DNA from: a virus
Direction: 5' to 3' (one strand)
Virus record (IMG/VR): IMGVR_UViG_3300034279_000305
Location: 22,962 to 86,961 of that record
Length of the DNA: 64,000 nucleotides
Part shown: positions 5,344 through 18,695 of the stretch, piece by piece
Layout: each line of letters begins with the position of its first letter
Position numbering within the stretch: position 1 is the first letter of the stretch
Made by a program: the position numbers and the translations under genes
Notes under the pieces: generated by a model
Database searches by the model: none
What the model saw: only the letters and a program-made list of their open reading frames with translations
Told to the model about the DNA's origin: nothing

Positions 5344-5725
5344 TTACCTTCTTATAACGATTGAGAGACCCATCTGCTTCGACTACCATAATCTCGCCAA
5401 GATTTTGTGCCATTATACGTTGCTCGCCTTCTGCTACGATGTGTTCACGTTCGCGCAGAGTGCGCATGACTGCATTGGCAATACCGAACTTGTTGCGCCC
5501 AGTGTCCATAGCATTCTGCGCTGCCTCTGCGCATTCTTTGTAGACGTCGTCGGGTAAAGACCACGAGATATCCATCGCATTACCAAAATCACCTACGCGA
5601 CGCAGATACTCCTGCCCACCATCTACTGAAACAGCACCACACGTGCATGTAACAAAATCGTGGCGATGCTTGGAGACGATCTTATCCCCGCAACTCAAAC
5701 ATAATACTGCATTCTGAACAATCAT
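5330..5725 (-). CDS. zinc-ribbon protein
   Basis: CLSC...HRHDFVTCTCG..VDGG.EYLRR. Confidence 0.7.
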   Translation of the reverse strand: MIVQNAVLCLSCGDKIVSKHRHDFVTCTCGAVSVDGGQEYLRRVGDFGNAMDISWSLPDDVYKECAEAAQNAMDTGRNKFGIANAVMRTLREREHIVAEGEQRIMAQNLGEIMVVEADGSLNRYKKVNEDE

Positions 5726-5949
5726 GATGAAACTTTCTTATGGACCATAGTAATGTGCTTACACTTATTATGGAAATTGAACCCCGTGCAATCACAAACC
5801 CATCCACTCGGAGTCATAGTGGTATGGTAAGTCTTACCCTTGCAGTTGGTATAAGGCCAAGCGAATCCAACTAGATGGTGTTCATTACTGAAGTTGATAC
5901 CAGCAAGAGCAACGGGACGTCGATATGGACTAACACCTGCAACATTCAT
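5722..5949 (-). CDS. SWIM zinc-finger protein
   Basis: CDC-x8-CKH (CxCxnCxH). Confidence 0.65.
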   Translation of the reverse strand: MNVAGVSPYRRPVALAGINFSNEHHLVGFAWPYTNCKGKTYHTTMTPSGWVCDCTGFNFHNKCKHITMVHKKVSS

Positions 5950-14813: not shown

Positions 14814-14889
14814 TGGTACGGAGTGACGGGCTCGAACCGCCGACATTCTGCGTGTAAAGCAGACGCTCTACCAACTGAGCTAACCCCGC
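14814..14889 (-). tRNA. tRNA-Val(TAC)
   Basis: Cloverleaf, TCTGC-TTTACAC-GCAGA, encoded CCA. Confidence 0.95.
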
Positions 14890-15317
14890 ACAACGTGGTC
14901 CGCTGCATGGGTGGCAGCGAACGAATCAGGTTTGACCTTGGCATCAATACCAGTCGAACCCTTAACGTATCCCAGTGCTTCTTTCACTGCGATATTACTC
15001 TTATACCTTGGATTTGGATTTAAGTCAAGGTGTATTTCCAATTTTCTTTGACCAACTACGTCTAAAATTGCAGTTGCTGCTTCAATAGCAAATCCTGCTT
15101 CAGTAATTAGACGTTGACGTAGATTGCCAAAGTCGCGCATCTCTACGTTTCTAGAGAATAAATTACCACCATGCTTAGAATCCTTGTGGAGAATAATAAC
15201 AGTGGAATACTTAGCAAACCAAAGACCGTTGCGTTTGAATCGAATGGAGTCCGCACCTACATAAACAGATGACGTCTCGCTTGAATTTAGAATTGCTTGT
15301 CTTGCTTCATCATACAT
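14880..15317 (-). CDS. RNase H-like YkuK (DUF458) family protein
   Basis: VYVGADS, RL..EA, EIHLDLN, KPDSFAA..AAD. Confidence 0.8.
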   Translation of the reverse strand: MYDEARQAILNSSETSSVYVGADSIRFKRNGLWFAKYSTVIILHKDSKHGGNLFSRNVEMRDFGNLRQRLITEAGFAIEAATAILDVVGQRKLEIHLDLNPNPRYKSNIAVKEALGYVKGSTGIDAKVKPDSFAATHAADHVVRG

Positions 15318-15335
15318 AGGTCACCTATTGAAAAT

Positions 15336-15411
15336 TGGCGGCGGGTGGTAGGAATTGAACCTACTTCTCAAGGTTTTGGAGACCCGTGGATTACCGTTTT
15401 CCCTCACCCCC
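15336..15411 (-). tRNA. tRNA-Trp(CCA), atypical
   Basis: CTCCAAA loop, GTAGG-TTCAATT-CCTAC T-arm, G73-CCA; bulged acceptor stem. Confidence 0.8.
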
Positions 15412-15426
15412 GTAATACTTATAAAA

Positions 15427-15503
<77 letters not shown>

Positions 15504-15564
15504 AAAGTCAAGTCGCACTGTGACGCCTGACCCCGTACTGCCCAGAAAAACAGTACGTCGTATA

Positions 15565-15646
15565 TGGTACCCAAGATAGGATTCGAACCTACATCTTACT
15601 TCCAGTTACCTTTGGCTCCGTTCGTAGCGGAGAGGGATACTTGGGC
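15565..15646 (-). tRNA. D-armless tRNA-like RNA with ACG (Arg) anticodon
   Basis: GCCCAAG/CTTGGGT acceptor plus ACCA, CTCCG-CTACGAA-CGGAG arm, GTAGG-TTCGAAT-CCTAT T-arm, no D arm at normal position. Confidence 0.7.
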
Positions 15647-15651
15647 AAAAA

Positions 15652-15726
15652 TGGAGCGGGAGATCGGGATCGAACCGACGACGAACAGCTTGGAAGGCTG
15701 ACACTCTACCACTGAGTTACACCCGC
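15652..15726 (-). tRNA. tRNA-Gly(TCC)
   Basis: Cloverleaf, CTTCCAA loop, CCA. Confidence 0.95.
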
Positions 15727-15743
15727 ATTAAACTTATTTATAT

Positions 15744-15820
15744 TGGCGACTCGTACGGGACTTGAACCCGTGGCCTCTAGCGTGACAGGCTAGCGATCTA
15801 ACCAACTGATCTAACGAGCC
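15744..15820 (-). tRNA. tRNA-Asp(GTC)
   Basis: Cloverleaf, CTGTCAC loop. Confidence 0.95.
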
Positions 15821-15825
15821 TAAAC

Positions 15826-15911
15826 TGGTGGACAGGGTTGGATTCGAACCAACGTAGCATTACTGCGGCAGATTTACAGTCTGCTGGTATTAACCACTCA
15901 CCCACCTATCC
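15826..15911 (-). tRNA. tRNA-Tyr(GTA)
   Basis: CTGTAAA loop, long variable arm. Confidence 0.95.
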
Positions 15912-15916
15912 AAAAA

Positions 15917-15992
15917 TGGTGCTCCCGAACGGATTCGAACCGCTGACACGTGGTTCTTCAAACCACTGCTCTACCAACTGAGCTACAGGAGC
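15917..15992 (-). tRNA. tRNA-Phe(GAA)
   Basis: GTGGT-TTGAAGA-ACCAC. Confidence 0.95.
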
Positions 15993-15998
15993 ATATAA

Positions 15999-16081
15999 TG
16001 GTACGCCTAGAGGGACTCGAACCCCCACGCTTTCGCACTGGTACCTAAAACCAGCGTGTCTACCAATTCCACCATAGGCGC
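15999..16081 (-). tRNA. tRNA-Leu(TAG)
   Basis: CTGGT-TTTAGGT-ACCAG, variable arm. Confidence 0.95.
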
Positions 16082-16091
16082 ATAAAAGAGT

Positions 16092-16204
16092 GACCACCTA
16101 AGTGTGCCTTGATTGCTTACTTCGCGACGTTGCAATCTTCCCATGTGAAGAAATATATTGCAAATTATTTCCGCACAACTTCTCGAGGTTCAGCATAGGT
16201 GGTC
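16092..16204 (-). ncRNA. candidate rod-shaped small RNA
   Basis: Spacer between two tRNAs closed by perfect 9-bp stem GACCACCTA/TAGGTGGTC with further interrupted pairing. Confidence 0.45.
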
Positions 16205-16209
16205 TATAT

Positions 16210-16285
16210 TGGTGGAGAATAACGGGATCGAACCGTTCACCTTCTGCGTGCAAGGCAGACGCTCTACCGAATGAGCTAATTCCCC
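16210..16285 (-). tRNA. tRNA-Ala(TGC)
   Basis: CTTGCAC loop, G3:U70. Confidence 0.95.
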
Positions 16286-16296
16286 GAATCTATAAA

Positions 16297-16465
16297 GCGA
16301 AGTGGGAGGATTCAGTTGTACCTCCATGACCCAGTCAATTACTATCTGTAATCTCGGTCAACGACTCGTTACTGGTTAAGAGGAGTACCACTCCCCGAGT
16401 CTACATTATCCCCACTGACGAGGGGATTATTCAGTCACACTTCTTACGCCGACCGTCGCCAGCGA
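16297..16465 (-). ncRNA. structured RNA, manA-motif-like
   Basis: GAAGTG/CACTTC closing stem, GTGTGACTGAATAA...TAATGTA...GTGGT...ACCAG...GGAGG-loop-GAATCCTCC; resembles the phage tRNA-associated manA motif as recalled. Confidence 0.55.
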
Positions 16466-16469
16466 TATT

Positions 16470-16548
16470 TGGTTGCAGAGGTTGGATTTGAACCAACGAT
16501 TTCCGGCTTATGAGACCAGCGAGGACGACCAGACTCCTCTACTCCGCG
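16470..16548 (-). tRNA. tRNA-fMet(CAT)
   Basis: C1:A72 mismatch, CGCGGAG start, CTCATAA loop. Confidence 0.88.
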
Positions 16549-16554
16549 ATAAAC

Positions 16555-16629
16555 TGGCTCCCTAAGATGGATTCGAACCACCGACCAATTGATTAACAGT
16601 CAACTGCGCTACCGCTGCGCCATTAGGGA
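16555..16629 (-). tRNA. tRNA-Asn(GTT)
   Basis: CTGTTAA loop. Confidence 0.95.
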
Positions 16630-16636
16630 ATAAGAA

Positions 16637-16712
<76 letters not shown>

Positions 16713-16821
16713 AAAACTTATTTAAAGAACACACTATATGCCTATTGACACGCATCTTAAGCGGGACTCACAATAATGTGCTCATTAAATAAGTCTCGAA
16801 AGACTTATTTTATTATAACAA

Positions 16822-16833
16822 TGTCAAAGAGCA
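16822..16833 (-). promoter_or_regulatory. rrn-type boxA antitermination element
   Basis: TGCTCTTTGACA immediately downstream of promoter, upstream of tRNA run. Confidence 0.65.
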
Positions 16834-16840
16834 GGAACTT

Positions 16841-16878
16841 TATTTATACATTCTACTACAATTTTTGTAGAAAGTCAA
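16841..16878 (-). promoter_or_regulatory. tandem early (TTGACT-N17-TAGAAT) and late (TATAAATA) promoters of tRNA operon
   Basis: Both motifs read directly. Confidence 0.75.
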
Positions 16879-16907
16879 CACTTATTTTCATTTTTACCAA
16901 AATAATT

Positions 16908-16983
16908 TGGTAGGGTCGGTGGGACTCGAACCCACACTGGAGGGATTTTAAGTCCCTTGTCTCTGCCTTTGGACTACGACCCC
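16908..16983 (-). tRNA. tRNA-Leu(TAA), short variable loop
   Basis: AGGGA-CTTAAAA-TCCCT, 5-nt variable loop. Confidence 0.88.
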
Positions 16984-16984
16984 A

Positions 16985-17062
16985 TGGGGTGGAAGACGGG
17001 ACTCGAACCCGCGACATTCGGCATCACAAGCCGACGCTCTAACCAACTGAGCTACAACCACC
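16985..17062 (-). tRNA. tRNA-His(GTG)
   Basis: TTGTGAT loop, G-1:C73. Confidence 0.93.
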
Positions 17063-17063
17063 A

Positions 17064-17152
17064 TGGCGGAACATCAGGGAGTCGAACCCTGTCTACCCTT
17101 TACAGGTAGTACGCATTAGCAGTGCGCTGCATTACCGTCCTGCCCATGTTCC
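17064..17152 (-). tRNA. tRNA-Ser(GCT)
   Basis: CTGCTAA loop, long variable arm. Confidence 0.9.
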
Positions 17153-17157
17153 AAACC

Positions 17158-17235
17158 TGGAGCGCCGAGTCGGATTCGAACCGACGACTGGAAGGATTTG
17201 CAGTCCTTTGCATTTGACCACTCTGCCATCGGCGC
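17158..17235 (-). tRNA. tRNA-Cys(GCA)
   Basis: CTGCAAA loop, U73. Confidence 0.95.
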
Positions 17236-17236
17236 T

Positions 17237-17308
17237 TGGTACCAGCAGTAGGTAACGCTCCTACCAAACCAACCTTATGAGAGTCGGTCGGACACTTATC
17301 CTGCTGGC
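17237..17308 (-). tRNA. degenerate tRNA-like RNA with CAT anticodon
   Basis: GCCAGCA/TGCTGGT plus ACCA, CTCATAA loop on 7-bp stem, mini D arm, T-loop AGCGTTA. Confidence 0.65.
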
Positions 17309-17310
17309 AT

Positions 17311-17386
17311 TGGTGCGTCTAGTAGGCTCCGACCCTACGACCTCACGGTTATCAGCCGTGTGCTCTACCAACTGAGCTATAGACGC
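17311..17386 (-). tRNA. tRNA-Ile(GAT)
   Basis: CTGATAA loop; non-canonical T-loop GTCGGAG. Confidence 0.9.
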
Positions 17387-17393
17387 ATTAACT

Positions 17394-17588
17394 CTACTTC
17401 GAATCTGCCTGCGGAGTTACTGCCGCATCTAGAGGTTTTTCTGCTGCTTCTTCTGTTGCATTTGCTGTAGCAAGTGCTTCATCTGCTGCAGGACCAGCAG
17501 CTTCTGCAACTGATGGCGTTTCTGCGCTGGGAGCACATGCTGCTGTAAGTGCTACAACTGCTGCTGCCATAAAAGTCTTGATATTCAT
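17394..17588 (-). CDS. small lipoprotein
   Basis: Signal peptide ending LTAAC, Ala/Glu/Pro-rich tail, AAGGAAG SD. Confidence 0.75.
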   Translation of the reverse strand: MNIKTFMAAAVVALTAACAPSAETPSVAEAAGPAADEALATANATEEAAEKPLDAAVTPQADSK

Positions 17589-17665
17589 ATTATTACTTCC
17601 TTCGTTAATAGAGTTTGAGAGACTAACCGTGATCTCTCGCGTGCTTATTAAGTAGCAACCCTAAC

Positions 17666-17741
17666 TGGTGGACACTCTGGGGCTTGAACCCAGGACCTAC
17701 AGGTTAAAAGCCCGTTGCTCTACCTACTGAGCTAAGTGTCC
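17666..17741 (-). tRNA. tRNA-Lys(TTT)
   Basis: CTTTTAA loop. Confidence 0.95.
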
Positions 17742-17746
17742 GAAAC

Positions 17747-17822
17747 TGGTAGACCCTGTTGGATTCGAACCAACGACCTGCGGATTAAGAGTCCGATGCT
17801 CTACCGACTGAGCTAAGGGTCC
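17747..17822 (-). tRNA. tRNA-Lys(CTT)
   Basis: CTCTTAA loop. Confidence 0.95.
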
Positions 17823-17828
17823 ATAAAC

Positions 17829-17904
17829 TGGTAGACGAGGAGGGACTCGAACCCCCAACCAAACCGTTATGAGCGGTCGGCTCTAACCATTGAGCTACTC
17901 GTCT
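17829..17904 (-). tRNA. tRNA-Ile2(CAT) (or Met)
   Basis: GACCG-CTCATAA-CGGTT, body resembles alphaproteobacterial lysidine tRNA-Ile2. Confidence 0.85.
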
Positions 17905-18103
17905 AGATGTAGATTCGATGCTCGAAATCCGGATTCACATGAGCGCCAACTACTTGACGCACGATGTAATAATAATCGATGAACCGATCACCGTCACGAG
18001 TATACACACCATGGGCATTCCGTGCTTCATCTTCCGACGCATACACGCCAAGGAGCACAGAACCTGCCATATCGAACTCACCTAGTAATGCAAAAACTTC
18101 CAT
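17903..18103 (-). CDS. hypothetical early protein
   Basis: 66 aa, own promoter and GAAAGGAA SD. Confidence 0.65.
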   Translation of the reverse strand: MEVFALLGEFDMAGSVLLGVYASEDEARNAHGVYTRDGDRFIDYYYIVRQVVGAHVNPDFEHRIYI

Positions 18104-18129
18104 AACAATTTCCTTTCAAACTATACACA

Positions 18130-18159
18130 CAGTATACCCCAGATTTAAGAAAAAGTCAA
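18130..18159 (-). promoter_or_regulatory. sigma70-like early promoter
   Basis: TTGACT-N17-TATACT. Confidence 0.8.
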
Positions 18160-18191
18160 GCCCCTATTTTGCATTTTATCAAATTATTTTT

Positions 18192-18268
18192 TGGTGACCC
18201 CTACGGGATTCGAACCCGTGATCTTCGCCGTGAAAGGGCGATGTCCTAGACCGCTAGACGAAGGGGCC
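18192..18268 (-). tRNA. tRNA-Glu(TTC)
   Basis: CTTTCAC loop. Confidence 0.95.
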
Positions 18269-18270
18269 AA

Positions 18271-18359
<89 letters not shown>

Positions 18360-18365
18360 TAAACG

Positions 18366-18602
18366 TTAGAGACCAATCGCGGTACGATATGTCTCTAGAA
18401 TCATATCTTCTTCTTGCCGAATATGCGCTTCCTTTTTACGGAGACGAATAATCTGGCGAGTCGCTTTAGCATCGTAACCTTCGCCTTTCAACTCAGAATA
18501 GACTTCCTTACGATCTGCCTTCCTAGCATCAAGATCCGCTTCGATATTTTCGATGCGCTCGATGAAGAGGCGATACTTATCAACTGCAATAATGTCACTC
18601 AT
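18366..18602 (-). CDS. gapR: GapR/DUF2312 (UPF0335) DNA-binding protein
   Basis: FIERIE..E...KEVYSELKGEGYD.KA.RQIIRLRKK...EE..ILETY..AIG. Confidence 0.88.
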   Translation of the reverse strand: MSDIIAVDKYRLFIERIENIEADLDARKADRKEVYSELKGEGYDAKATRQIIRLRKKEAHIRQEEDMILETYRTAIGL

Positions 18603-18619
18603 AATATTCTCCTACAAAA

Positions 18620-18695
18620 TGGATGCCCCGTCAGGTCTCGAACCTGAACTCTTCTGAATCAAAATCAGACGTGTTGCCAATTACACCACGGGGCA
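18620..18695 (-). tRNA. tRNA-Gln(TTG)
   Basis: TTTTGAT loop, U1:A72. Confidence 0.95.

What the first reader, a model, noticed from the sequence alone, without database searches (positions are those of the whole stretch)
15565..15646. D-armless tRNA(ACG) with a D-arm-like hairpin on the wrong side of the anticodon arm
Seen: acceptor stem GCCCAAG/CTTGGGT with ACCA, a canonical T-arm (TTCGAAT) and a perfect anticodon arm (CTCCG-CTACGAA-CGGAG). Only 7 nt (TATCCCT) link the acceptor to the anticodon stem. The 23-nt variable region holds CCA-AAGGTAAC-TGG, a hairpin with the GGTA typical of D-loops. No canonical tRNA-Arg(ACG) exists in the window. Inference: an arm-rearranged tRNA that could rebuild the elbow from the variable position, or a tRNA mimic/decoy for anticodon nucleases. 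Intact stems argue against simple decay.
Basis: partly seen in the sequence, partly recalled or inferred. Interest (0 to 1): 0.8.

Follow-up and report, generated by a model that had tools for sequence, protein, structure and literature searches.

The report
Rewired phage arginine tRNA gene
This 82-base phage gene is very probably a working arginine tRNA in which one strand of the D stem and the whole D loop lie after the anticodon arm instead of before it, a non-cloverleaf layout shared by many phages and missed by standard tRNA finders.

Summary
The element (window 15565-15646, minus strand) is real. It sits in the tRNA array of a freshwater T4-like phage contig. ARAGORN and Rfam do not call it.

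It belongs to a large family. One pattern scan hit at least 116 viral contigs, giving 69 unique sequences. I saw members in six cultured phage genomes and inferred a seventh from a BLAST hit; all are unannotated there. Acceptor, anticodon and T stems covary strongly: 96% of cells paired, 0 of 500 shuffles as good.

What is conserved is this order: U8-A9, a short C-rich strand, the anticodon arm, a G-rich strand, then AACUGGA. AACUGGA is the D-loop sequence of the ordinary tRNA-Arg(ACG) of sister phages. The two short strands pair in 75 of 75 sequences, with compensatory changes. The G19 equivalent covaries with T-loop position 56.

My reading: a tRNA-Arg with a permuted D domain, charged by host ArgRS. 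It occupies the slot where a sister phage has the ordinary gene.

Expression and charging are not shown. Eight literature searches found no description. This scan reached the same reading earlier on other genomes.

The parts
15640..15646 (-). Acceptor stem, 5' strand (tRNA positions 1-7, GCCCAAG)
   Evidence: Pairs with 15569-15575. All 7 acceptor pairs show changes on both sides across 56 family members, and 99.5% of cells are paired.
15638..15639 (-). U8 A9
   Evidence: The linker begins with UA in 75 of 75 unique members. Their roles as partner of A14 and as an A21-like base are inferred.
15633..15637 (-). UCCCU: a strand equivalent to D-stem 3' strand 22-25, plus position 26, running straight into the anticodon stem
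   Evidence: C23 and C24 pair with G12 and G11 (15609-15610). Pair 12-23 is standard in 75 of 75 (G-C 58, U-A 16, C-G 1). Pair 11-24 is standard in 75 of 75. Slid registers give at most 74 of 150. Further compensatory forms occur in UCU members.
15616..15632 (-). Anticodon arm CUCCG-CUACGAA-CGGAG; anticodon ACG at 15623-15625
   Evidence: Four of the five stem pairs show changes on both sides; G31-C39 was fixed by the search pattern. The loop is the same as in the ordinary tRNA-Arg(ACG) of sister phages.
15612..15615 (-). CCAA joiner after the anticodon stem (positions 1'-4')
Evidence: This stretch is variable in the family.
15608..15611 (-). AGGU: a strand equivalent to D-stem 5' strand 10-13
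   Evidence: See the 15633-15637 entry. It lies directly 5' of the D-loop sequence, as positions 10-13 do in a cloverleaf.
15601..15607 (-). AACUGGA: D-loop sequence A14 A15 C16 U17 G18 G19 A20
   Evidence: The same heptamer forms the D loop of the ordinary tRNA-Arg(ACG) at L068:2123-2200. The G19 equivalent covaries with T-loop position 56 (G-C 70, A-U 5, no mismatch). An A follows the GG in 75 of 75.
15593..15600 (-). Connector AGUAAGAU from the D loop to the T stem; the last U is equivalent to U48
   Evidence: Its length is 6-10 nt in 57 unique members. In 18 members it is 19-22 nt and forms an extra covarying hairpin. The last base is U opposite A15 in 75 of 75.
15576..15592 (-). T arm GUAGG-UUCGAAU-CCUAU
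   Evidence: 99.3% of cells are paired, and 3 of 5 pairs change on both sides.
15569..15575 (-). Acceptor stem, 3' strand (CUUGGGU)
15565..15568 (-). Discriminator A73 and encoded CCA
   Evidence: CCA is encoded in 74 of 75 unique members. The discriminator is U in 45, G in 19 and A in 11.

Best explanation
The gene encodes a functional elongator tRNA-Arg(ACG) whose core is wired differently from the cloverleaf.

**Proposed layout.** After the acceptor strand and U8-A9 comes a short strand equivalent to D-stem positions 22-25, then position 26. This strand runs directly into the anticodon arm. After the anticodon arm come a few joiner bases, then a strand equivalent to D-stem positions 10-13. 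Next is the D-loop sequence A14-A15-C16-U17-G18-G19-A20. A connector ending in U48 leads into an ordinary T arm and acceptor strand with encoded CCA.

**Inferred fold.** The two D-stem strands pair around the anticodon arm and stack on it. G18-G19 reach the T loop, and A15 pairs with U48. The L shape would then be rebuilt with three backbone joins moved: 9 to 22, 44 to 10, and 20/21 to 48.

**Inferred steps of function (none shown here):**
- RNase P and 3' processing release it from the polycistronic array.
- The host ArgRS charges it through A20, C35 and G36.
- Host TadA makes I34.
- It then reads CGU, CGC and CGA, the phage's commonest arginine codons.

**Shown here:** conservation, covariation, synteny, and the identity of its parts with those of the ordinary tRNA-Arg.

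**Inferred:** the three-dimensional fold, processing, charging and decoding.
For: 1. **Large, conserved family.**
- That gave 128 parsed instances and 69 unique sequences. 66 of 69 have all 12 acceptor and T-stem pairs.
- On 56 members, 96.0% of cells are paired and 16 of 20 pairs change on both sides. None of 500 shuffles is as good. Slid registers give 33-49%.

2. **Descent from an ordinary tRNA-Arg(ACG).**
- Sister phages carry a cloverleaf gene at L068:2123-2200 (the same sequence as L069:9697-9774).
- That gene has nearly the same acceptor stem, differing at one 5'-strand base. It has the same T arm and discriminator as some family members, for example L015.
- Its D loop starts with AACUGGA.
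- In L069 the ordinary gene lies in the stretch Gly(UCC)-Met(CAU)-Arg-Pro(UGG).
- Of the 8 family loci listed, 6 have the order Gly(UCC)-rewired gene-Pro(UGG), as the window does. L064 has a Leu(UAA) gene between Gly and the rewired gene. In L079 the rewired gene follows Ala.

3. **D-stem pairing across the anticodon arm.**
- Pairs 12-23 and 11-24 are standard in 75 of 75 unique members. Pair 12-23 takes three types (G-C 58, U-A 16, C-G 1).
- The chosen register gives 150 of 150 paired. Slid registers give at most 74 of 150.
- Members with UCG or UCU anticodons carry other complementary pairs of strands, written as positions 22-25 / 10-13, each 5' to 3':
  - UGCC/AGCU
  - UCGG/CCGU
  - ACGA/UCGU, which gives four Watson-Crick pairs

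4. **Tertiary partners are kept.**
- G19-C56 is G-C in 70 and A-U in 5, never mismatched.
- A15-U48 holds in 75 of 75.
- U8-A9 is present in 75 of 75.
- A follows the GG in 75 of 75.

5. **Arginine identity.**
- The review PMC9976931 (passages read) lists A20, C35, U/G36 and A/G/U73 as bacterial arginine determinants. A20 is the main one for E. coli ArgRS.
- All of these are present. The scaffold is found only with Arg anticodons (ACG, UCG, UCU) in the DNA I held.

6. **Need for this tRNA.**
- CGU, CGC and CGA make up 70.5% of 1,162 Arg codons in 97 long ORFs of the contig.
- The only other Arg tRNA on the contig is Arg(UCU).

7. **Re-ordering test.**
- With segments placed in cloverleaf order inside a script, ARAGORN of 75 as tRNA-Arg with the right anticodon. 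In gene order it of 75.
- With D-stem complementarity destroyed it-35 of 75.

8. **No phage ArgRS.** None was found in five complete cultured genomes that carry the gene, nor in the contig itself. A host enzyme would have to charge it.

9. **Weak RNA evidence.** Contigs from 2 of 4 metatranscriptome libraries cover the element with no mismatch.
Against: - **No direct evidence of function.** Nothing here shows transcription, end processing, charging or decoding. The RNA-library contigs cannot exclude DNA carry-over and cannot show ends.
- **The D-stem is very short in this subgroup.** It has two Watson-Crick pairs, flanked by U.U and A.C.
- **Energy does not favour it.** RNAalifold does not predict the pairing.
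- **Within the ACG family the paired letters hardly vary.** The compensatory evidence rests on about six sequence types. Several come from rarer UCG and UCU relatives.
- **The A19-U56 cases may be one event.** The five unique sequences come from one subfamily.
- **The window's CCA could pair with UGG** and so compete for G18-G19.
- **An ordinary Arg(ACG) gene sometimes coexists with the rewired one.** This is so in Stenotrophomonas phage DLP6 and Microbacterium phage Zooman, and in loci L111 and L166. The rewired gene is therefore not always the sole reader.
- **Close relatives L055 and L056 have nothing between Gly and Pro**.
- **The contig is about 53% complete**. An ordinary copy elsewhere in this phage is not excluded.
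- **The ARAGORN re-ordering test has moderate power.** 30-35 of 75 are still called after the D stem is broken.
Confidence: 0.75

Rival explanations
1. It is a tRNA-like decoy or sponge. It keeps an Arg-type anticodon arm, elbow and CCA end so as to bind or absorb a host factor, such as a tRNA-Arg-directed defence nuclease or a modification enzyme. It does not take part in translation.
For: - Ordinary tRNA-Arg(ACG) genes coexist with it in DLP6, Zooman, L111 and L166. In those phages it adds something other than the sole CGN reader.
- The anticodon loop is kept in the ordinary form, CUACGAA.
- No charging data exist.
Against: - A decoy for an anticodon-directed factor would not need the ArgRS determinant A20. 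It would not need the G19-C56 and A15-U48 partners or a 7-bp acceptor stem with CCA. All of these are kept in 74-75 of 75.
- It occupies the slot where a sister phage has the ordinary gene.
- In RHph_I1_18, X1, Cp1R7A-A1 and the window contig, no ordinary Arg(ACG) was found in the arrays examined.
- Duplicate isoacceptors are common in these arrays anyway, so coexistence proves little.
Confidence: 0.12
2. One reading: a D-armless tRNA in which a self-contained hairpin, CCA-AAGGUAAC-UGG, in the variable position acts as a displaced D arm.
For: The MFE fold of the window sequence contains this 3-bp hairpin. It is worth -2.6 kcal/mol over the three main helices alone.
Against: - CCA is present in only 7 of 75 unique members. 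The other members cannot form the stem.
- The stem would tie up the GG that covaries with T-loop position 56.
- Complementarity of three free bases to UGG is expected by chance in about one in eight cases if wobble pairs count. This is my estimate.
Confidence: 0.05
3. It is a decaying pseudogene of tRNA-Arg(ACG) left in the array.
For: Neither ARAGORN nor Rfam calls it in the window.
Against: There are 69-75 unique variants with intact stems, many compensatory changes and an encoded CCA. They occur in phages of at least three bacterial classes.
Confidence: 0.02

Closest known systems
Ordinary class I bacterial and phage tRNA-Arg(ACG) (Rfam RF00005 cloverleaf), for example the gene at L068:2123-2200 in a sister phage
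   Same: - Acceptor stem, discriminator, CCA and T arm.
- Anticodon arm with loop CUACGAA.
- D-loop letters AACUGGA, including G18, G19 and A20.
- U8 and A9, and the A15/U48 partners.
- Position in the tRNA array.
   Different: - The D stem is not a hairpin. Its 22-25 strand comes before the anticodon arm; its 10-13 strand and the D loop come after it.
- The usual 4-5-nt variable loop is replaced by the D loop plus a connector.
- The window copy is not detected by RF00005 or ARAGORN.
D-arm-lacking mitochondrial tRNAs, such as animal mt tRNA-Ser(AGY) and nematode mt tRNAs (features recalled; the review PMC4394434 was seen only in search listings)
   Same: There is no D hairpin between the acceptor and anticodon stems. 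The anticodon helix is in effect lengthened by pairs formed with the 5' linker.
   Different: - Those tRNAs have lost the D-loop letters and the G18-G19 contacts with the T loop. Here the letters are kept, moved, and covary with the T loop.
- Those work with dedicated organellar factors. These must work with ordinary bacterial machinery.
Circularly permuted tRNA genes of the red alga Cyanidioschyzon merolae (recalled; no paper read here)
   Same: tRNA parts are encoded in a non-standard order.
   Different: There the 3' half precedes the 5' half, and processing through a circular intermediate yields an ordinary cloverleaf. Here the acceptor strands are in normal order. No simple cut-and-join would restore a cloverleaf, so the mature RNA itself must be non-cloverleaf.
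Class II tRNAs with a long variable arm (Leu, Ser, Tyr)
   Same: 18 of 75 unique members carry an extra 5-bp hairpin before the T arm. It often has a GNRA loop and shows compensatory changes.
   Different: Class II tRNAs keep an ordinary D arm. Here the extra hairpin comes in addition to the moved D loop.
tRNA-like segment inside the annotated 'RNAX' of phage T5 (AY734508.1, L194:386-460)
   Same: It has an acceptor-like stem, a T arm, and GUAACUGG followed by UGGAAGAU before the T arm. It scores 31-34 bits with my models.
   Different: It has no anticodon arm with an Arg anticodon and no CCA. A 4-bp hairpin, ACGG/CCGU, stands where the anticodon arm would be. Kinship is not shown.

Membership tests
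tRNA (Rfam RF00005, cloverleaf) | 7-bp acceptor stem, discriminator, 3' CCA | tested here: met
   Read directly. 99.5% of acceptor cells are paired and all 7 pairs change on both sides. CCA is encoded in 74 of 75.
tRNA (Rfam RF00005, cloverleaf) | T arm: 5-bp stem and 7-nt loop of the UUCRANY type | tested here: met
   The window has GUAGG-UUCGAAU-CCUAU. 99.3% of cells are paired. T-loop variants are tabulated.
tRNA (Rfam RF00005, cloverleaf) | Anticodon arm: 5-bp stem and 7-nt loop with U33 and a purine at 37 | tested here: met
   CUCCG-CUACGAA-CGGAG. The stem pairs covary.
tRNA (Rfam RF00005, cloverleaf) | D hairpin between positions 9 and 26 | tested here: not met
   Only 7 nt lie between the acceptor and anticodon stems, in the window and in all 75 unique members parsed.
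tRNA (Rfam RF00005, cloverleaf) | Score at or above the family's gathering cut-off (29 bits) | tested here: not met
   There is no RF00005 match on the element, even at E up to 10. Of 9 other members tested, 3 pass narrowly at 31.9-38.8 bits.
Bacterial tRNA-Arg identity set (PMC9976931, Table 1 and the section on arginine identity, passages read) | C35 and G36 or U36 in the anticodon | tested here: met
   The window's anticodon is ACG. Relatives on the same scaffold have UCG and UCU.
Bacterial tRNA-Arg identity set (PMC9976931, Table 1 and the section on arginine identity, passages read) | A20 in the D loop, just after G18-G19 | tested here: met
   An A follows the GG (or GA) in 75 of 75 unique members. 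That it occupies the same place in space as A20 is inferred.
Bacterial tRNA-Arg identity set (PMC9976931, Table 1 and the section on arginine identity, passages read) | Discriminator A, G or U at position 73 | tested here: met
   The window has A. In the family it is U in 45, G in 19 and A in 11 of 75.
Bacterial tRNA-Arg identity set (PMC9976931, Table 1 and the section on arginine identity, passages read) | Aminoacylation with arginine by ArgRS | not testable with these tools
   This needs in vitro charging or acid-gel northern blots.
D-arm-lacking mitochondrial tRNAs (features recalled) | D arm replaced by a short loop, with loss of the G18-G19 contacts to the T loop | tested here: not met
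   The short linker is present. But the GG is kept after the anticodon arm and covaries with position 56: G-C in 70, A-U in 5.
Permuted tRNA genes (red alga; recalled) | The 3' half is encoded upstream of the 5' half, and the mature tRNA is an ordinary cloverleaf | tested here: not met
   Acceptor 5' strand, anticodon arm, T arm and acceptor 3' strand are in normal order. Only the D-stem strands and D loop are displaced.
tRNA-like decoys or mimics | Binds a tRNA-recognising factor without serving in translation | not testable with these tools
   No sequence criterion defines this class. See the rival explanation.

The most novel reading that the evidence does not exclude
The rewiring is adaptive rather than a tolerated accident. 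Phages of many hosts keep and exchange an arginine tRNA whose backbone path through the core differs from every cellular tRNA. Under this reading it stays chargeable by host ArgRS and usable by the ribosome. At the same time it escapes a host or phage factor that reads the ordinary D arm of tRNA-Arg, such as a tRNA-directed defence nuclease, a toxin or a modification enzyme. That would explain three observations:
- It is confined to Arg isoacceptors.
- It coexists with an ordinary Arg(ACG) copy in some phages.
- It is spread across unrelated phage lineages.
Probability: 0.25. Interest if true: 0.9.

Novelty: new variant of a known kind. Interest (0 to 1): 0.8.

Why it matters
- **A new tRNA architecture.** The cloverleaf is treated as universal outside organelles. 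If this is a working elongator tRNA on ordinary bacterial ribosomes, the L shape can be built from a different backbone topology. That bears on how RNase P, ArgRS, TadA, EF-Tu and the ribosome recognise tRNA, and on the design of orthogonal tRNAs.
- **Annotation.** The family is missed by ARAGORN and mostly missed by the Rfam tRNA model. It is unannotated in every cultured phage record I inspected. Phage tRNA repertoires and codon-usage analyses therefore undercount arginine readers.
- **It can be tested now.** The gene is present in cultured phages of Rhizobium, Mesorhizobium, Xanthomonas, Stenotrophomonas and Microbacterium.

Tried and rejected
**Structures rejected**
Only 7 of 75 unique members have CCA there.
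- A mini-hairpin AG-GUAA-CU with a GNRA loop inside the conserved motif. The C that would pair is missing or changed in RHph_I1_18, Cp1R7A-A1, DLP6 and the UCG and UCU members. The linker pairing holds in all of them.

**Searches that added nothing**
- Two exact-pattern scans for the same scaffold with other anticodons or other 5' halves. They returned the same 14 contigs. The remaining 2 and 37 stretches were unrelated when read.
- The genome-contig scan. Of 10 stretches, 5 are family members, all on metagenome-assembled contigs. The four longer ones carry phage-like tRNA arrays; the fifth, L192, is a 718-base contig that ARAGORN was not run on. The other 5 are chance matches in coding DNA. 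No isolate cellular genome was found with it.
- The search for a phage ArgRS (PF00750). There was no match in 5 cultured genomes or in the contig.

**Methods that gave no support**
- Thermodynamics. RNAalifold on my own alignment did not return the linker pairing, and its nearest-neighbour energy is slightly unfavourable. Support for the pairing is comparative only.
- MAFFT alignment A3 puts the GGUU subfamily one column out of register around the D-stem strand. As a result, one search shows 16 'unpaired' cells at pair 11-38. The right-justified count resolves them as U-A pairs.
- The first control of the re-ordering test, with both strands reversed, kept complementarity and so was uninformative. 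One search replaced it.

**Sequencing runs**
- Runs X15 and X17 gave no cover of the element. This cannot be interpreted.
- The contigs of X18 and X20 stop at the element's ends. Flanks differ among related phages, so this is not evidence of RNA ends.

**Not used or not visible**
- Complex prediction and the protein structure tools do not apply to an RNA.
- Supplementary tables were closed, including S3 of the DLP6 paper, which lists its tRNAs.

**Literature.** Eight searches found no description of a phage or bacterial tRNA with this layout. I read passages only, in PMC9897764, PMC9976931, PMC5349666 and PMC6409571. All other papers I saw only as listings.
Full report
**Where it is.** The window is bases 22962-86961 of an 86,961-base IMG/VR virus record that CheckV rates about 53% complete. 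Its DNA polymerase is of the T4 type and is about 49% identical to that of cyanomyoviruses. Near-identical DNA stands in 14 lake or fresh-water metagenome runs filed under 14 studies.

Bases 14814-18695 hold a minus-strand array. ARAGORN finds 22 tRNAs there, Rfam adds one more at 15340-15411, and there is a manA RNA. The element lies at 15565-15646 on the minus strand. It starts five bases after the CCA of tRNA-Gly(UCC) and ends 61 bases before tRNA-Pro(UGG).

**The observation.** ARAGORN does not call the element. No Rfam family matches it, even at E up to 10. No ordinary tRNA-Arg(ACG) exists in the contig; the only Arg tRNA found is Arg(UCU).

**It is a gene family, not a relic.**
- An exact pattern from the unusual part found 14 viral contigs with the whole element, in different flanks.
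- A covariance model built from these found more distant versions next to homologues of the neighbouring 145-residue ORF.
This gave 128 instances and 69 unique sequences. 66 of 69 have all 12 acceptor and T-stem pairs.
- On 56 members with short connectors, 96.0% of 1,120 cells form standard pairs, and 16 of 20 pairs change on both sides. None of 500 shuffles reaches any of the five measures. Slid registers give 33-49% pairing.
- A second, more general model separates the family cleanly over 1.03 Mb of held phage DNA. There are 87 hits at 66-100 bits, three variants at 47-55 bits, and ordinary tRNAs at 36 bits or less.

**What the conserved parts are.** The three bases concerned are CCA in 7 of 75 unique members and cannot pair with UGG in the rest.

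Four things are conserved:
- U8-A9
- a C-rich linker, UAUCCCC in most members and UAUACCC in a subfamily
- the loop CUACGAA
- after the anticodon stem, a few variable bases, then AGGU (or GGUU), then AACUGGA

Sister phages that lack the element carry an ordinary tRNA-Arg(ACG), at L068:2123-2200 (the same sequence as L069:9697-9774) and at L078:15075-15152. The L068/L069 gene has nearly the same acceptor stem, differing at one 5'-strand base. It shares the T arm and discriminator of some family members. Its D loop begins with AACUGGA, that is A14 A15 C16 U17 G18 G19 A20. So the D-loop sequence has been kept but lies after the anticodon arm.

**The D stem.** I numbered the linker as 8, 9, 22-26, and the four bases before AACUGGA as 10-13.
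- Pairs 12-23 and 11-24 are then standard in 75 of 75 unique members. Pair 12-23 takes three types: G-C 58, U-A 16, C-G 1.
- The register is specific: 150 of 150 paired, against at most 74 of 150 when slid.
- Members of the same scaffold with other Arg anticodons give further compensatory forms, written as positions 22-25 / 10-13, each 5' to 3':
  - UCG at L096:3294-3371: UGCC/AGCU
  - UCU at L193:1848-1926 and in Rhizobium phage RHph_I1_18: UCGG/CCGU
  - UCU in Microbacterium phage Zooman: ACGA/UCGU, four Watson-Crick pairs
- Position 26 pairs with the second base after the anticodon stem in 60 of 75 (C-G 53, G-C 6, U-G 1). The window is one of the exceptions.

**Tertiary partners.**
- The second G of UGG is G with C56 in 70 members and A with U56 in 5. 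It is never mismatched.
- A15 faces a U at the last position before the T stem in 75 of 75.
- An A follows the GG in 75 of 75.

These are the G19-C56 pair, the 15-48 pair and the A20 of an ordinary tRNA-Arg. The equivalence is my inference, from the sequence match to the ordinary gene and from the covariation.

**The model.** The strand 22-25 continues into 26 and the anticodon stem, exactly as in a cloverleaf. The strand 10-13 is followed by A14 and the D loop, exactly as in a cloverleaf. Three backbone joins differ: 9 to 22, 44 to 10, and 20/21 to 48. From what I recall of tRNA crystal structures, U8-A14 stacks on pair 13-22, A21 lies beside it, and positions 44-45 lie beside pair 10-25. These joins would therefore connect neighbours in space.

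In 18 of 75 unique members the connector is 19-22 nt. It forms an extra hairpin with compensatory changes, for example GGCCA/UGGCU, GGACA/UGUCC and GGAUA/UAUCC.

As an in-silico check, I placed the segments in cloverleaf order inside a script.
- ARAGORN then of 75 as tRNA-Arg with the right anticodon. In gene order it of 75.
- With D-stem complementarity destroyed it-35 of 75.
- With the D loop shuffled it of 75.
- The finder is tolerant, so this test has moderate weight.

**Function.** The bacterial arginine identity set is A20, C35, U/G36 and A/G/U73, with A20 the main determinant for E. coli ArgRS (PMC9976931, Table 1 and the arginine section, passages read). All of these are present. In the DNA I held, the scaffold occurs only with Arg anticodons.

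The contig's 97 long ORFs use CGU, CGC and CGA for 70.5% of 1,162 Arg codons.

In the sister phage L069 the ordinary gene lies in the stretch Gly(UCC)-Met(CAU)-Arg(ACG)-Pro(UGG). Of the 8 family loci listed, 6 have Gly(UCC)-rewired gene-Pro(UGG), as the window does. L064 has a Leu(UAA) gene between Gly and the rewired gene, and in L079 it follows Ala.

No ArgRS gene is present in five complete cultured phage genomes that carry the element, nor in the contig. The host enzyme would have to charge it.

Two of four metatranscriptome libraries hold contigs covering the element without a mismatch. Such contigs do not prove transcription and cannot show ends.

**Points against.**
- In the window's subgroup the D stem has only two Watson-Crick pairs.
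- Nearest-neighbour energy does not favour it, and RNAalifold does not predict it.
- The compensatory evidence comes from about six sequence types.
- The A19-U56 cases belong to one subfamily.
- An ordinary Arg(ACG) gene coexists with the rewired one in DLP6, Zooman, L111 and L166.
- Close relatives L055 and L056 have neither gene between Gly and Pro.
- The contig is incomplete.

**Spread.**

| Cultured phage | Accession | Anticodon(s) of the rewired gene(s) | How seen |
|---|---|---|---|
| Rhizobium phage RHph_I1_18 | MN988519.1 | ACG and UCU | fetched and matched with the model |
| Mesorhizobium phage Cp1R7A-A1 | MT188704.1 | ACG | fetched and matched with the model |
| Xanthomonas phage X1 | OQ427096.1 | ACG | fetched and matched with the model |
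| Xanthomonas phage BUDD | ON758385.1 | ACG | blastn only, not fetched |
| Stenotrophomonas phage DLP6 | KU682439.2 | ACG | fetched and matched with the model |
| Microbacterium phage Zooman | OK040793.1 | ACG and UCU | fetched and matched with the model |

- No feature is annotated at any of the ACG copies. I did not inspect the annotation at the two UCU copies.
- ARAGORN overlaps 0 of 140 ACG-pattern instances in the DNA I held.
- Rfam's tRNA model passes 3 of 9 other members narrowly, and does not pass the window.
- In 185,579 species genomes the pattern found only five real copies. All lie on metagenome-assembled contigs; the four longer ones carry phage-like tRNA arrays, and the fifth is a 718-base contig that I did not scan for tRNAs.

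**Prior knowledge.** Eight full-text searches found no paper describing such a tRNA. The DLP6 paper reports 30 tRNAs found with tRNAscan-SE and does not mention it in the passages I read. Its tRNA table is a supplement that I could not open.

The scan's own notebook shows that other agents met the same family on other genomes, and on this stretch read in another window. They reached the same reading. I looked those notes up after I had derived the model. I count them as agreement, not as evidence.

**Verdict.** The element is best read as a functional, topologically rewired tRNA-Arg(ACG), and it is one member of a widespread, unannotated phage family.

Noticed in passing
window 15340-15411 (-): Rfam calls a tRNA here at 43.8 bits that ARAGORN misses. 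The anticodon loop reads CUCCAAA, so it is probably tRNA-Trp(CCA). In related loci ARAGORN finds Trp(CCA) at this place, after Pro(UGG).
   Followed up: partly
L118:749-817, L148:7045-7113, L131:3168-3239, L165:2384-2455, L152:1274-1345: A second kind of odd phage Arg tRNA, 69-72 nt long, with anticodons CCG, UCU or ACG. A CCG..GGA..CGG hairpin follows the acceptor strand directly, with no U8-A9, and the anticodon stems look lengthened. ARAGORN does call these.
   Followed up: no
window 16908-16983 (-); L127:10767-10843, L131:4433-4509 and 5684-5760, L087:12283-12359: Leu tRNAs of class I size, 76-77 nt with no long variable arm. Their anticodons are UAA, CAA or UAG, and they have A73. They are common in these phage arrays.
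   Followed up: no
L194:386-460 (phage T5, AY734508.1, inside the annotated 'RNAX'): A tRNA-like segment with an acceptor-like stem, a T arm, and GUAACUGG..GGAAGAU before the T arm. It has a 4-bp hairpin where the anticodon arm would be, and no CCA. It may be a degenerate relative of the rewired family.
   Followed up: partly
L197:545-765 (Microbacterium phage Zooman, between tRNA-Arg(CCG) and tRNA-Arg(CCU)): A 221-base match to bacterial RNase P RNA class A spanning the whole model. It scores 53 bits (E 7e-14), below the 100-bit cut-off. It could be a much reduced RNase P-like RNA inside a phage tRNA array.
   Followed up: no
L014:3574-3666, L015:650-743, L184:2559-2649; DLP6 104738-104829: ARAGORN or GenBank calls tRNA-Ile(UAU) genes of 90-94 nt, far longer than an ordinary Ile tRNA. 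They recur in several of these phage arrays.
   Followed up: no
L195:949-1221 (Rhizobium phage RHph_I1_18): A permuted alpha-proteobacterial-type tmRNA (60 bits, above the cut-off) next to the tRNA array. The same array, and those of L067 and DLP6, hold a tRNA with anticodon CUA, which would read amber codons.
   Followed up: no
window 16295-16464 (-): A manA RNA (RF01745, 65 bits, above the cut-off) sits inside the tRNA array, between tRNA-Met and tRNA-Ala.
   Followed up: no
window 17237-17308 (-): Another first-stage note describes a third CAU tRNA here with a remodelled elbow. Neither ARAGORN nor Rfam lists a tRNA at these coordinates in my.
   Followed up: no
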